This document shows, piece after piece, positions 27,101 to 30,100 of a DNA stretch of 64,000 bases; the first letter of the stretch is position 1; every line of letters begins with the position of its first letter. The stretch comes from Escherichia coli (lineage in GTDB: Bacteria; Pseudomonadota; Gammaproteobacteria; Enterobacterales; Enterobacteriaceae), in NCBI RefSeq assembly GCF_022846255.1, contig NZ_AP025682.1, one strand, 5' to 3'. A program made the position numbers.

Positions 27101-30100
27101 GGGGCAACCTCTTCAGTCAGGTGTGCGATCTCCTGCACCGCATTCACATACGCCATTTCGCTGGCGATGAGTTCGTCCCATTGTTCTTCTGTCGCCAGGC
27201 GTAACATGAGCTGGCTTTTTTCGACGAGTTGTTGCCAGGCGAAATACAAATGCGGTGCATGGTTCATCAGACTGGGTCCTGAATCAAAGAAGGGGAGAGT
27301 AAAGACTCTTTCCAGGCATCGGCAATATTACGCATTAATGCTTCCACCTCTTCGACTGCGGAGACATCGTTGCGTAAATTGGCTTGCAGCAAACGCCTGA
27401 CCATATAGCTATAAAGAGCAATTAAGTTTTGGGTTAATTCGTCTTTGCTCTCTTCATCAAGACTCACCCGCAGTCCGTTCTCAATGATGTTGATCGCTTT
27501 TGACAAAGAGACACCTTTGCCTTGCTGATTGTTGTCCTGCATAAACAGGCGCGCTCTAACCAGTGCGCTCAGCACTCCATCAAATAGCATGGTGACCAAC
27601 TGCTGTTGGCTGGCGCTCATTACGGCGCTTTCGACGCCAATTTGTGCATAGGCCTGGGTGCCTTTTGCCGCGTACATGACCTGTCTCCCGATGAATATTG
27701 ATTACTTGGAATTACTGTTGTTTTCGAACTGCTGCGTTAAGTAGCTGCTGGTGCTGTTTAACGAGGTCATTAAAACGTCCAGTTGGGTAAATTGTTCTTT
27801 GTAGCGAGCGACCTGTGCATCAATGCGATCGCTGGCGGCGTTGTAGTCTTTAGTTAACTTATTCAGGGTCTTACTAACGCCATCGGTAGCGGCTTTAATA
27901 ATGCCTGTTGTCGAAAGCCAACTGGTCAGGTTGCTGCCGATGGTGGTCGTGATGCCGGTTTTTTTACCATCGCCAACAATCAATGCACCTACGCCGCTGG
28001 CATCTTTTTTCAGTGCAGCGGTGAGTTTGTCGGCATCCAGTTCCAGTTTGCCATCGCTGGGATCGGTCGTGATACCAATCTGCGCCAACGTTTTATAGTT
28101 GGAAGAACTAACGGTATTACTCAGCATCGATTTCAACTGCGTCTGAATCGTCCGCAACGTGGAGTCGCCGAGCAGTGCGCCATTGCTAGAACTCTGGCTA
28201 TCAGCCCCCGCATCTACGGCGGTGTATTTGGTCAGGCTGCTGAAGGTATCTATTAGCGAGTTATAGGCATTCACCCAGTCTTTAATCGCCGTTTGCGCTT
28301 TGGATGTGTCCTGAGTGATGGTTAGCGTCTGGTTGCCCGTGGTGACATCGTTCAGGTTCAGGGTGATGTTTTCCAGCGCGTCGCTGATGGTGTTGCTGCT
28401 GTTCTCAATGGCGACGTTATTGACCGTCAGCTGTGCATTCTGGGCGGCGACCGAGACCTCCATGCCGTTGCTGCTGGCACTGGCGTCATAGCCCATAAAA
28501 CTTTGTAGCGCATCATCACCGCTGACCGAGAGTGTCATCGCATTATCAAGGCCGGTGTCATTTGATGTGACTGACAGACGATATTCACCGTTACCCACGT
28601 TAATGATGCTTGCGCTTACGCCTGCTTTTGCGTTGTTGATGGCATCACGAATCCCGCTTAACGACGAGTTAGCCGCGCTGATATCAATGGCAATCGGATC
28701 TTTGTCGCCGCCTTGTTGAATGGTGAGTTTGCTGTCGCTGGTGGCGATCGCCGTTTTCGTATCGTCTCTGGTGGTGCGCGTTGTCAGGGTTTGCGCCTGC
28801 GCCAGATGGGTGACGCTGATGGTGTATTTCCCGGCGATGGCATTACCCGCGGTGGTGGCACTGAACGCGGTGGTGCTGCTGGTGGTGCTGGTAGCGGAAA
28901 AAAGATCGGCTTTAGACAATGCAGTATTGGCGGTCTGGAAAGTCGTCAGCGCGCTTTTCAGCGTACCGTAGGCGCTAAGTTTAGCGGTAAACGACGATTG
29001 CTGATTCGAAATAGGGGTTAGCGTCGCTTTTTGCGCGGCGGTGAGGCTATCAAGGATTGAACTTAAATCCAGACCTGACCCGACTCCCAGCGATGAAATA
29101 CTTGCCATGCGATTTCCTTTTATCTTTCGACACGTAAAACGAATACCGGGGTTATCGGCCTGAATTGCGCAAAGTTTACGTTTAATTGTTTTTTTTAATA
29201 GCGGGAATAAGGGGCAGAGAAAAGAGTATTTCGTCGACTAACAAAAAATGGCTGTTTGTGAAAAAAATTCTAAAGGTTGTTTTACGACAGACGATAACAG
29301 GGTTGACGGCGATTGAGCCGACGGGTGGAAACCCAAAACGTAATCAACGACTTGCAATATAGGATAACGAATCATGGCACAAGTCATTAATACCAACAGC
29401 CTCTCGCTGATCACTCAAAATAATATCAACAAGAACCAGTCTGCGCTGTCGAGTTCTATCGAGCGTCTGTCTTCTGGCTTGCGTATTAACAGCGCGAAGG
29501 ATGACGCCGCGGGTCAGGCGATTGCTAACCGTTTTACTTCTAACATTAAAGGCCTGACTCAGGCTGCACGTAACGCCAACGACGGTATTTCTGTTGCACA
29601 GACCACCGAAGGCGCGCTGTCCGAAATCAACAACAACTTACAGCGTATCCGTGAGCTGACGGTTCAGGCTTCTACCGGGACTAACTCTGATTCGGATCTG
29701 GACTCCATTCAGGACGAAATCAAATCCCGTCTCGACGAAATTGACCGCGTATCCGGTCAGACCCAGTTCAACGGCGTGAACGTACTGGCAAAAGACGGTT
29801 CGATGAAAATTCAGGTTGGTGCGAATGACGGCCAGACTATCACTATTGATCTGAAGAAAATTGACTCTGATACGCTGGGGCTGAATGGTTTTAACGTGAA
29901 TGGTTCCGGTACGATAGCCAATAAAGCGGCGACCATTAGCGACCTGACAGCAGCGAAAATGGATGCTGCAACTAATACTATAACTACAACAAATAATGCG
30001 CTGACTGCATCAAAGGCCCTTGATCAACTGAAAGATGGTGACACTGTTACTATCAAAGCAGATGCAGCTCAAACTGCCACGGTCTATACATACAATGCAT

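What the first reader, a model, noticed from the sequence alone, without database searches (positions are those of the whole stretch)
29152..29298. Divergent sigma28 promoters of fliD and fliC, and a perfect match upstream of tar
TAAA-N15-GCCGATAA-type elements are read directly on the minus strand for fliD (29152-29178), on the plus strand for fliC (29271-29298) and, with perfect consensus, upstream of tar (59731-59757). Class 3 promoter architecture is therefore conserved despite the strain-specific fliC and tap differences.
Basis: seen in the sequence. Interest (0 to 1): 0.15.

Follow-up and report, generated by a model that had tools for sequence, protein, structure and literature searches.

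The report
Known flagellar sigma-28 promoters, confirmed
These are the textbook FliA (sigma-28) promoters of the E. coli flagellin (fliC), filament-cap (fliD) and aspartate-receptor (tar) operons; they are really there and well conserved, and they are ordinary.

Summary
TAAA-N15-GCCGATAA occurs exactly on the minus strand at 29152-29178 (43 nt before fliD) and on the plus strand at 59731-59757 (32 nt before tar). It occurs with one mismatch (GACGATAA) at 29271-29297, before fliC. Two exact matches compare with 0.02 expected by chance.

The window is a phylogroup-B2-like E. coli chromosome with an H1 flagellin and an internally deleted tap. In K-12 the same sequences are FliA ChIP-seq peaks. 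They are identical for fliC, differ by one spacer base for tar, and differ by one -10 base for fliD.

In K-12, fliC and tar expression collapses in a fliA mutant. The K-12 fliC transcription start maps to window 29305, 8 nt after the -10 octamer.

The boxes and their spacing stay fixed while the spacer sequence changes. This holds in a ~70%-identical E. coli allele class and in all 34 divergent fliD/flagellin pairs sampled from other genera.

One refinement: fliD is not purely class 3. It also has an FlhDC/sigma-70 class 2 start about 43 nt upstream, at 29187.

Everything here is already published. Interest is low.

The parts
29171..29178 (-). fliD sigma-28 -35 element, TAAACTTT
   Evidence: Sequence and pattern hit. 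AAAGTTTACG is invariant in 8 sequences from 7 genera and in the ~70% E. coli allele class.
29152..29159 (-). fliD sigma-28 -10 element, GCCGATAA (K-12 has ACCGATAA)
   Evidence: TTATCGGC is invariant across genera. In K-12 the site is a FliA ChIP-seq peak with fold-above-threshold (FAT) score 43.
29144..29144 (-). Predicted sigma-28 transcription start of fliDST (A, 8 nt after the octamer; 36-nt leader). Inferred, not measured.
   Evidence: Geometry transferred from the fliC, tar and motA starts. No TSS record was found for it.
29187..29200 (-). Class 2 (FlhDC/sigma-70) fliD promoter core: TSS at 29187 and -10 TATTAA at 29195-29200
   Evidence: Kim 2012 Table S1 lists a K-12 fliD TSS 79 nt upstream of the ATG, supported by 3 reads. 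TTAAT is conserved across genera. FlhDC occupancy and dual regulation are shown.
29229..29237 (.). Conserved block GAGTATTTC between the two promoters; candidate FlhDC half-site for the class 2 fliD promoter (inferred)
   Evidence: Near-invariant in alignments A1. It lies at -42 to -50 relative to the class 2 TSS.
29261..29270 (+). Conserved A-tract (AAAAAAATTC) immediately upstream of the fliC -35; possibly an UP-like element or part of the FlhDC site (inferred)
   Evidence: Invariant or near-invariant.
29271..29278 (+). fliC sigma-28 -35 element, TAAAGGTT
   Evidence: Identical to the K-12 PfliC motif. Invariant across 7 genera.
29290..29297 (+). fliC sigma-28 -10 element, GACGATAA (non-consensus A at the second position)
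   Evidence: The GACGATAAC form is conserved in Enterobacter, Cedecea, Pseudocitrobacter, Pluralibacter, Pantoea and Erwinia.
29305..29373 (+). fliC 5' UTR (69 nt), starting at TSS G29305
   Evidence: The K-12 TSS 2003675(-) from SMRT-Cappable-seq was mapped base-for-base onto the window. Two small conserved hairpins.
59670..59696 (+). Intrinsic terminator after cheW (end of the motAB-cheAW operon), upstream of the tar promoter
   Evidence: Terminator scan: 10-bp stem followed by a T-run.
59731..59738 (+). tar sigma-28 -35 element, TAAAGTTT (8/8)
   Evidence: In K-12 the site is a FliA ChIP-seq peak with FAT score 57.
59750..59757 (+). tar sigma-28 -10 element, GCCGATAA (8/8)
   Evidence: The cryo-EM and mutational work was done on this promoter.
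59765..59788 (+). tar 5' UTR (24 nt) from the inferred +1 at A59765 to the ATG at 59789
   Evidence: The numbering C-13 G-12 ATAA N-7 of tarp in Shi et al. was applied to the sequence. The K-12 distance from octamer to ATG is 32 nt.
55145..55171 (+). motA/MotR sigma-28 promoter inside flhC (same regulon; not part of the finding's coordinates)
   Evidence: Identical to the K-12 ChIP motif with FAT score 101. The MotR 5' end is 7 nt downstream.
31429..31455 (+). fliA sigma-28 promoter (dual class 2/3)
   Evidence: Identical to the K-12 ChIP motif with FAT score 91.
13414..13440 (-). fliL sigma-28 site (dual class 2/3)
   Evidence: Identical to the K-12 ChIP motif with FAT score 18.

Best explanation
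These are three canonical FliA (sigma-28) promoters of the E. coli flagellar regulon.

Established mechanism (from the literature, not tested here): once the hook-basal body is complete, the anti-sigma factor FlgM is exported. Free FliA then binds core RNA polymerase. Sigma region 4 recognises TAAAGTTT-like -35 boxes. Regions 2 and 3 recognise the composite -10 element GCCGATAA, which is an extended-10 GC plus a core CGATAA, 11 bp downstream of the -35 box. Transcription starts 6-8 nt after the octamer.

In this window:
- PfliC starts at G29305 and gives a 69-nt leader.
- Ptar starts at about A59765, gives a 24-nt leader, and drives tar-(remnant tap)-cheRBYZ. It sits just after the motAB-cheAW terminator.
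- PfliD points the other way and is predicted to start at A29144. It sits 43 nt downstream of an FlhDC-dependent sigma-70 class 2 start at 29187, so fliDST is expressed in both the middle and the late phase.

The two sigma-28 promoters stand back to back, with 92 bp between their -35 boxes.

Shown here: the sequence, its statistics, its conservation, and base-for-base mapping onto K-12 experimental data. Inferred: that FliA binds and initiates at these positions in this particular strain.
For: - Exact or near-exact matches in the right place and orientation.
- An independent PWM ranks tar first and fliD second in the window.
- K-12 FliA ChIP-seq peaks lie on the same sequences: fliC FAT 110, tar 57, fliD 43.
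- Expression in wild type versus a fliA deletion (Fitzgerald): fliC 2319 to 11, tar 251 to 0, fliD 633 to 356.
- Zhao 2007, fliA deletion: fliC -78.8-fold, tar -13.2-fold, fliD -9.9-fold.
- The K-12 fliC TSS maps 8 nt after the octamer.
- The tar promoter numbering comes from structural and mutational work on that promoter.
- The MotR 5' end is 7 nt after the motA octamer.
- Phylogenetic footprint: the ~70%-identical E. coli allele class keeps both boxes and the spacing while the spacer sequences differ.
- All 34 divergent fliD/flagellin pairs sampled outside the genus carry a motif on each strand: 33-51 nt from the fliD ATG in 33 of the 34 (86 nt in Brenneria), and 69-99 nt from the flagellin ATG in 33 of the 34. 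Two fliC-side scores and one fliD-side score fall below PWM 12, and in the Rahnella pair the best fliC-side hit (score 7.6, 460 nt upstream) is not a promoter match.
- 60% of 130 flagellin gene starts have a PWM score of 12 or more upstream, against 0.8% of intragenic controls.
- An alignment across 7 genera shows the boxes invariant and the spacers free.
- The tar upstream region is at least 90% identical in 5379 of 5426 E. coli genomes.
Against: - There are no expression, ChIP or TSS data for this strain itself. Every functional statement is transferred from K-12.
- The fliC match alone is no better than the best chance hit in a 64-kb window.
- Three comparably scoring matches, at 32510(-), 11540(-) and 23536(+), are identical in K-12 but are not ChIP-seq sites. 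Sequence alone therefore does not prove function.
- For fliD, FliA dependence was weak in Fitzgerald's K-12 RNA-seq. A lacZ fusion showed no detectable FliA-dependent activity because the class 2 promoter dominates.
- I found no measured TSS for the sigma-28 fliD promoter.
Confidence: 0.95

Rival explanations
1. fliDST is transcribed essentially from the FlhDC-activated sigma-70 class 2 promoter. On this view the sigma-28 element at 29152-29178 is occupied but contributes little, so it is a vestigial or back-up promoter rather than a working class 3 promoter.
For: - Fitzgerald 2014: deleting fliA only lowers fliD from 633 to 356, whereas deleting flhD abolishes it (633 to 3).
- No FliA-dependent activity was seen for a fliD-lacZ fusion.
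- An upstream TSS at 29187 with a conserved TATTAA -10.
Against: - FliA ChIP-seq gives FAT 43 at this site.
- Overexpressing fliA in an flhD deletion restores fliD to wild-type levels or above (section 18 of PMC4183435).
- Zhao 2007 found a -9.9-fold change in a fliA deletion.
- Both boxes are invariant across 7 or more genera while the spacer drifts, which argues for purifying selection.
- This strain has the consensus G where K-12 has A, so the K-12 data may understate the site's strength.
Confidence: 0.15
2. The matches are chance occurrences of a short AT-rich/GC-mixed pattern in intergenic DNA and have no promoter function.
For: The fliC score (15.5) lies within the null distribution of the window maximum. 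Three similar-scoring matches elsewhere in the window are not FliA-bound in K-12.
Against: - Two exact hits against 0.02 expected.
- Each lies directly upstream of a late flagellar operon in the correct orientation.
- Box-specific conservation across genera.
- ChIP-seq, fliA-deletion and TSS data on identical or near-identical K-12 sequences.
Confidence: 0.01
3. tar is expressed mainly by read-through from the upstream motAB-cheAW (mocha) operon rather than from its own promoter.
For: tar lies 144 bp downstream of cheW on the same strand. Both operons are FliA-dependent, so the fliA-deletion data do not separate the two routes.
Against: - A strong intrinsic terminator at 59670-59696 separates cheW from the tar promoter.
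- A distinct FliA ChIP-seq peak (FAT 57) is centred on the tar motif.
- The tar promoter is active on its own in vitro and in reporter fusions.
Confidence: 0.03

Closest known systems
E. coli K-12 MG1655 PfliC, PfliD and Ptar (FliA ChIP-seq sites of Fitzgerald, Bonocora & Wade 2014, PMC4183435)
   Same: The loci are orthologous and the gene order is the same. The fliC motif is identical over 28 nt. The tar boxes are identical. The fliD -35 box and spacer are identical. The fliD-fliC intergenic region is 265 bp in both strains, with only 4 SNPs.
   Different: The fliD -10 is GCCGATAA here and ACCGATAA in K-12 (window 29159). The tar spacer differs at one base (CCCCCTTCC versus CCCCCCTCC). Downstream genes differ: an H1 595-aa flagellin versus the H48 498-aa type, and tap is internally deleted.
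Sigma-28 consensus promoter TAAAGTTT-N11-GCCGATAA (Koo et al. 2009, as cited in Hollands 2009 PMC2859248; structure on tarp in Shi et al. 2020)
   Same: A two-block architecture with an 11-bp spacer, C-13/G-12 in the -10 element, and a TSS 6-8 nt after the octamer.
   Different: fliC departs from the consensus at two positions (TAAAGGTT, GACGATAA) and fliD at one (TAAACTTT). Both departures are themselves conserved across genera.
Dual class 2/class 3 flagellar promoters (fliAZY, fliLMNOPQR, flgMN, flgKL, fliDST)
   Same: The fliD region combines an FlhDC/sigma-70 start with a FliA promoter, as described for K-12 and Salmonella.
   Different: Nothing is specific to this window. The only difference is the stronger consensus match of the sigma-28 -10 element relative to K-12.
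Flagellin/fliD divergent promoter pairs of other Enterobacterales (Enterobacter, Citrobacter, Serratia, Pantoea, Erwinia, Photorhabdus, Proteus and others)
   Same: Back-to-back sigma-28 motifs with fixed spacing and similar distances to the start codons in all 34 sampled pairs.
   Different: Spacer sequences and the central region vary. Citrobacter and Serratia use GCCGATAC-type -10 boxes for flagellin instead of GACGATAA.

Membership tests
FliA (sigma-28) dependent promoter | -35 TAAAGTTT-like and -10 GCCGATAA-like boxes separated by 11 bp (TAAA-N15-GCCGATAA) | tested here: met
   fliD matches 15/16, fliC 14/16 and tar 16/16, all with the exact spacing.
FliA (sigma-28) dependent promoter | Located upstream of, and oriented towards, a late flagellar or chemotaxis operon | tested here: met
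   The octamer ends 43 nt before the fliD ATG, 76 nt before the fliC ATG and 31 nt before the tar ATG (intervening bases). Genes were identified from ORFs and from RefSeq annotation of near-identical genomes.
FliA (sigma-28) dependent promoter | Boxes and spacing conserved while the spacer sequence drifts (purifying selection on the recognition elements) | tested here: met
   The ~70% E. coli allele class; 34 of 34 divergent pairs from other genera; the 7-genus alignment; 60% versus 0.8% enrichment upstream of flagellin genes.
FliA (sigma-28) dependent promoter | FliA-RNA polymerase occupancy in vivo | not testable with these tools
   Only orthologous K-12 evidence is available: ChIP-seq FAT scores of 110 (fliC), 57 (tar) and 43 (fliD) on identical or near-identical sequences.
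FliA (sigma-28) dependent promoter | Expression lost or reduced in a fliA mutant | not testable with these tools
   K-12 literature only: fliC 2319 to 11, tar 251 to 0, fliD 633 to 356; -78.8-fold, -13.2-fold and -9.9-fold.
FliA (sigma-28) dependent promoter | Transcription start 6-8 nt downstream of the -10 octamer | tested here: inconclusive
   Met for fliC by mapping the K-12 Cappable-seq TSS onto identical sequence (8 nt). Met for tar through published promoter numbering (8 nt). No sigma-28 TSS record was found for fliD. Nothing has been measured in this strain.
Pure class 3 (late-only) flagellar operon | No FlhDC/sigma-70 (class 2) input | tested here: not met
   This fails for fliD only. 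K-12 has an upstream TSS that maps to window 29187, with a conserved TATTAA -10. K-12 also shows FlhDC occupancy by ChIP-qPCR and dual regulation. fliC and tar show no such input: no FlhDC peak and no sigma-70-like promoter near tar.

The most novel reading that the evidence does not exclude
This strain carries the consensus G at the first position of the fliD -10 octamer, as do O157:H7, ATCC 8739, 042 and most other genera. K-12 carries A there. The FliA promoter may therefore contribute substantially more to fliDST expression in natural E. coli than the K-12 measurements suggest. If so, the 'weak class 3 input' reported for fliD would be partly a K-12 lineage peculiarity.
Probability: 0.3. 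Interest if true: 0.15.

Novelty: already known. Interest (0 to 1): 0.05.

Why it matters
It matters little beyond annotation. It confirms that the late-flagellar transcriptional wiring of a B2-type, H1, tap-deleted E. coli is the same as in K-12. K-12 knowledge of FliA control, TSS positions and leaders, and of the MotR and FliX small RNAs, can therefore be transferred to this strain.

Two small points may be useful:
- K-12's fliD -10 allele (ACCGATAA) was the only A among the six E. coli sequences of this allele class that I compared.
- The non-consensus positions of PfliC (GACGATAA) and PfliD (TAAACTTT) are themselves conserved across genera. This suggests promoter strength is tuned rather than maximised.

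Tried and rejected
- My first PWM used all 28 columns with a small pseudocount. It over-fitted the spacer columns and ranked noise above fliC. I replaced it with a 17-column PWM.
- The Kim 2012 TSS table has no sigma-28 starts for fliC or tar. It lists only 2-3-read starts far upstream, probably because that MG1655 stock was poorly motile. It did supply the class 2 fliD and fliA starts.
- Thomason 2015 (dRNA-seq) is not held in the library.
- The Ettwiller 2016 Cappable-seq GTF is truncated before 2.0 Mb.
- The SMRT-Cappable-seq tables contain no entry for tar (b1886) or fliD (b1924).
- The text searches of Melamed 2023 and Zhao 2007 returned no fliC/fliD/tar TSS coordinates.
- I first expected a FliA promoter at yecR. 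The literature shows that yecR is an FlhDC class 2 target instead.
- The extra motif hits at 32510(-), 11540(-) and 23536(+) were considered as new intragenic FliA promoters. I rejected them as probable chance matches: they are identical in K-12 yet absent from the 52 ChIP-seq sites.
- The chance explanation and the read-through explanation for tar were both rejected (see the rival explanations).
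Full report
**What is in the sequence.** fliD lies at 27702-29108 on the minus strand and fliC at 29374-31161 on the plus strand. Between them is a 265-bp intergenic region.

- The minus strand at 29152-29178 reads TAAACTTTGCGCAATTCAGGCCGATAA.
- The plus strand at 29271-29297 reads TAAAGGTTGTTTTACGACAGACGATAA.
- Upstream of tar (ATG at 59789), the plus strand at 59731-59757 reads TAAAGTTTCCCCCTTCCTTGCCGATAA.

One small correction: the 27-nt fliC pattern ends at 29297, and 29298 is the following C. On the short form TAAA-N15-GCCGATAA, fliD and tar are both exact and fliC has one mismatch. On the full consensus TAAAGTTT-N11-GCCGATAA quoted by Hollands et al., tar matches 16/16, fliD 15/16 and fliC 14/16.

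**Is it more than chance?** Exact matches number 2 against 0.02 expected. Matches with up to one mismatch number 7 against 0.40 expected. Matches with up to two mismatches number 22 against 5.7 expected.

I also built a position weight matrix (PWM) from 19 strong K-12 FliA ChIP-seq sites that all lie outside this window, using 17 informative columns. It ranks tar first (22.7 of a possible 23.2), fliD second (20.0) and motA third (18.7). fliC scores 15.5. Ten sites score 14 or more, against 0.94 expected.

Taken alone, the fliC score is no better than the best random hit in a window of this size (null maximum: mean 14.7, 95th percentile 17.4). Three other matches, at 32510(-), 11540(-) and 23536(+), are identical in K-12 and yet are not FliA ChIP-seq sites. 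The pattern is therefore strong evidence for tar and fliD. For fliC, the case rests on context.

**Where the window comes from.** It is an E. coli chromosome. The 28600-31400 stretch is 99.9% identical to the O83:H1 strains LF82 and NRG857C, and 99.8% identical to Nissle 1917, CFT073 and ABU83972. Gene order follows LF82 and K-12.

fliC encodes a 595-aa H1-type flagellin, whereas K-12 has a 498-aa type. tap carries an internal deletion corresponding to K-12 1969492-1970850, with the junction at window 61615-61629. This leaves tar followed by short tap remnants and cheR.

**Experimental anchoring through K-12.** Table 2 of Fitzgerald, Bonocora & Wade (2014) lists FliA ChIP-seq sites with their motifs; FAT is the paper's fold-above-threshold score.

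| Site | FAT score | K-12 sequence compared with the window |
|---|---|---|
| fliC | 110 | identical |
| motA (inside flhC) | 101 | identical |
| fliA | 91 | identical |
| fliL | 18 | identical |
| otsA (weak intragenic site) | 2 | identical |
| tar | 57 | one spacer base differs |
| fliD | 43 | one -10 base differs (K-12 ACCGATAA, window GCCGATAA; window 29159) |

- In that study, deleting fliA took fliC from 2319 to 11, tar from 251 to 0, and fliD from 633 to 356.
- Zhao et al. (2007) reported -78.8-fold, -13.2-fold and -9.9-fold changes for the same genes.
- Of the seven window hits with up to one mismatch, six correspond to K-12 ChIP-seq sites.

**Transcription starts.**
- fliC: SMRT-Cappable-seq (Yan et al. 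2018, Supplementary Data 2) places the K-12 fliC TSS at 2003675 on the reverse strand. The intergenic regions align base for base, so this is G29305. That is 8 nt after the last A of GACGATAA and gives a 69-nt leader.
- tar: Shi et al. number the promoter as C-13 G-12 A T A A N-7. This puts +1 at A59765, again 8 nt after the octamer, with a 24-nt leader.
- motA: the annotated 5' end of MotR, which shares the motA promoter, is 7 nt after its octamer.
- aer: the TSS is 6 bp after its octamer.
The realistic range is 6-8 nt rather than 7-10.
- fliD: I found no measured sigma-28 start. By the same geometry I predict A29144, giving a 36-nt leader.

**Refinement: fliD is not purely class 3.**
- Kim et al. 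(2012) list a K-12 fliD TSS 79 nt upstream of the ATG, supported by 3 reads. This maps to window 29187, just upstream of the sigma-28 -35 box. It is preceded by TATTAA at 29195-29200.
- Fitzgerald et al. show FlhDC occupancy at fliDST by ChIP-qPCR and classify the operon as dually regulated.
- Their follow-up found no detectable FliA-dependent activity from a fliD fusion, because the FlhDC/sigma-70 promoter dominates.
- The intergenic region therefore holds three promoters: PfliD class 2, PfliD class 3 and PfliC.

**Comparative evidence within E. coli.**
- 3187 of 5426 complete genomes carry this intergenic region at 95% identity or more. A further 1315 carry an allele that is only about 70% identical.
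- In that divergent allele both sigma-28 boxes and the 15-nt gaps are intact, while the spacers differ at most positions.

**Comparative evidence outside E. coli.**
- A scan of species-representative genomes for the conserved flagellin start codon region gave 120 loci.
- 60% of 130 flagellin starts have a PWM score of 12 or more within 250 nt upstream, against 0.8% of intragenic control windows.
- All 34 loci with a divergent fliD carry a motif on both strands. On the fliD side it reads TAAACTTT-N11-(G/A)CCGATAA in most pairs (TAAATTTT or TAAAATTA in Gilliamella, Brenneria and Morganella; weak in the Sulfuritalea MAG), 33-51 nt from the ATG except in Brenneria (86 nt). On the flagellin side it lies 69-99 nt from the ATG, except in the Rahnella pair, where no convincing fliC-side match was found.
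- These loci are mostly Enterobacterales (Cedecea, Pseudocitrobacter, Enterobacter, Pluralibacter, Pantoea, Erwinia, Citrobacter, Serratia, Edwardsiella, Hafnia, Photorhabdus, Proteus, Morganella, Brenneria, Rahnella), plus Gilliamella and one betaproteobacterial Sulfuritalea MAG.
- A 7-genus alignment shows TTATCGGC, AAAGTTTACG, AAAAAAATTCTAAAGGTTG and GACGATAAC as invariant islands in otherwise variable sequence.
- The tar upstream region is at least 90% identical in 5379 of 5426 E. coli genomes.
- An intrinsic terminator at 59670-59696 separates the tar promoter from cheW.

**Mechanism.** From established knowledge (Koo 2009 as cited; Shi 2020; the introduction of Fitzgerald 2014):
1. FlhDC activates class 2 genes, including fliA and flgM.
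2. FlgM holds FliA inactive until the hook-basal body exports FlgM.
3. FliA holoenzyme then recognises the -35 box weakly and the composite -10 box strongly, through C-13/G-12 and the ATAA core.
4. It initiates at PfliC, Ptar, PmotA and the class 3 PfliD.

For this strain these steps are inferred from sequence identity and conservation. None was measured.

**Comparison with what is known, and verdict.** Every element is the orthologue of a published, experimentally characterised K-12 promoter, so nothing here is new.

Two modest observations may not be widely noted:
- K-12's ACCGATAA at fliD was the only A among the six E. coli sequences of this allele class that I compared. O157:H7, ATCC 8739, 042 and 2018-02-2CC all have G, like the window.
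- The non-consensus bases of PfliC and PfliD are themselves conserved across genera.

Novelty: already known. Interest: about 0.05.

Noticed in passing
window 29109-29373; loci L004-L007: E. coli has two deep allele classes of the fliD-fliC intergenic region. 3187 of 5426 genomes are at least 95% identical to the window, 1315 are only about 70% identical, and about 900 give no match. The ~70% class is about 19 bp shorter and goes with 436-443-aa flagellins and a 471-aa FliD. In one genome (23CRST049, L007) an IS66-family element replaces the fliD side but the fliC promoter is kept.
   Followed up: partly
window 29159: The fliD sigma-28 -10 element is GCCGATAA here, in O157:H7, ATCC 8739, 042 and 2018-02-2CC, and in most other genera. 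K-12 MG1655 has ACCGATAA and was the only A among the six E. coli sequences of this allele class compared.
   Followed up: partly
window 61450-61742 (junction 61615-61629): tap is internally deleted (K-12 1969492-1970850 is missing). About 134 nt of its 5' end and about 109 nt of its 3' end remain between tar and cheR. The tar promoter therefore drives tar-cheRBYZ without a functional Tap.
   Followed up: partly
window 31167-31358: The fliC 3' UTR matches the K-12 small RNA FliX (b4827) at 95.8%, even though the flagellin coding sequence is a different H type. An intrinsic terminator lies at 31336-31352.
   Followed up: partly
window 55145-55178: The motA/MotR sigma-28 promoter inside flhC is identical to K-12. 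The MotR 5' end maps to A55178, 7 nt after GCCGATAT.
   Followed up: yes
window 32510-32537(-), 11540-11567(-), 23536-23563(+): Three sigma-28-like matches with PWM scores of 14.5-16.3: antisense in fliZ, sense in fliN, and antisense in yedE. All three are identical in K-12 but are not among the 52 FliA ChIP-seq sites, so they are probably chance matches. The weak K-12 ChIP site in otsA is conserved at 51913-51939(-).
   Followed up: partly
window 29305-29373: The fliC 5' UTR contains two small hairpins: CGGC-N6-GCCG at 29307-29320 and GGGU-N4-ACCC at 29323-29334. Their stems are kept over 7 genera while the loops vary. The MFE is -19.9 kcal/mol, z = -2.1.
   Followed up: partly
window 29187-29270: There are conserved islands between the two sigma-28 promoters. 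TTAAT at 29195-29199 is the -10 of the class 2 fliD promoter, whose TSS is at 29187. GAGTATTTC at 29229-29237 is a possible FlhDC half-site. An A-tract at 29261-29270 abuts the fliC -35 box.
   Followed up: partly
window 31429-31456: At fliA, the K-12 TSS found by two datasets (v2 1999843, v3 2001819) falls inside the sigma-28 -10 octamer. It is therefore the sigma-70/FlhDC class 2 start, with GATAAT as its -10 inside the sigma-28 spacer. The two promoters are interleaved.
   Followed up: partly
window about 20300-23200 versus L001 9600-13900: Between fliE and yedK the window is about 2.1 kb shorter than LF82, which carries emrE-ybcL-ybcM and a porin gene there. The window is therefore not LF82 itself, despite 99.9% identity at fliC.
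   Followed up: no
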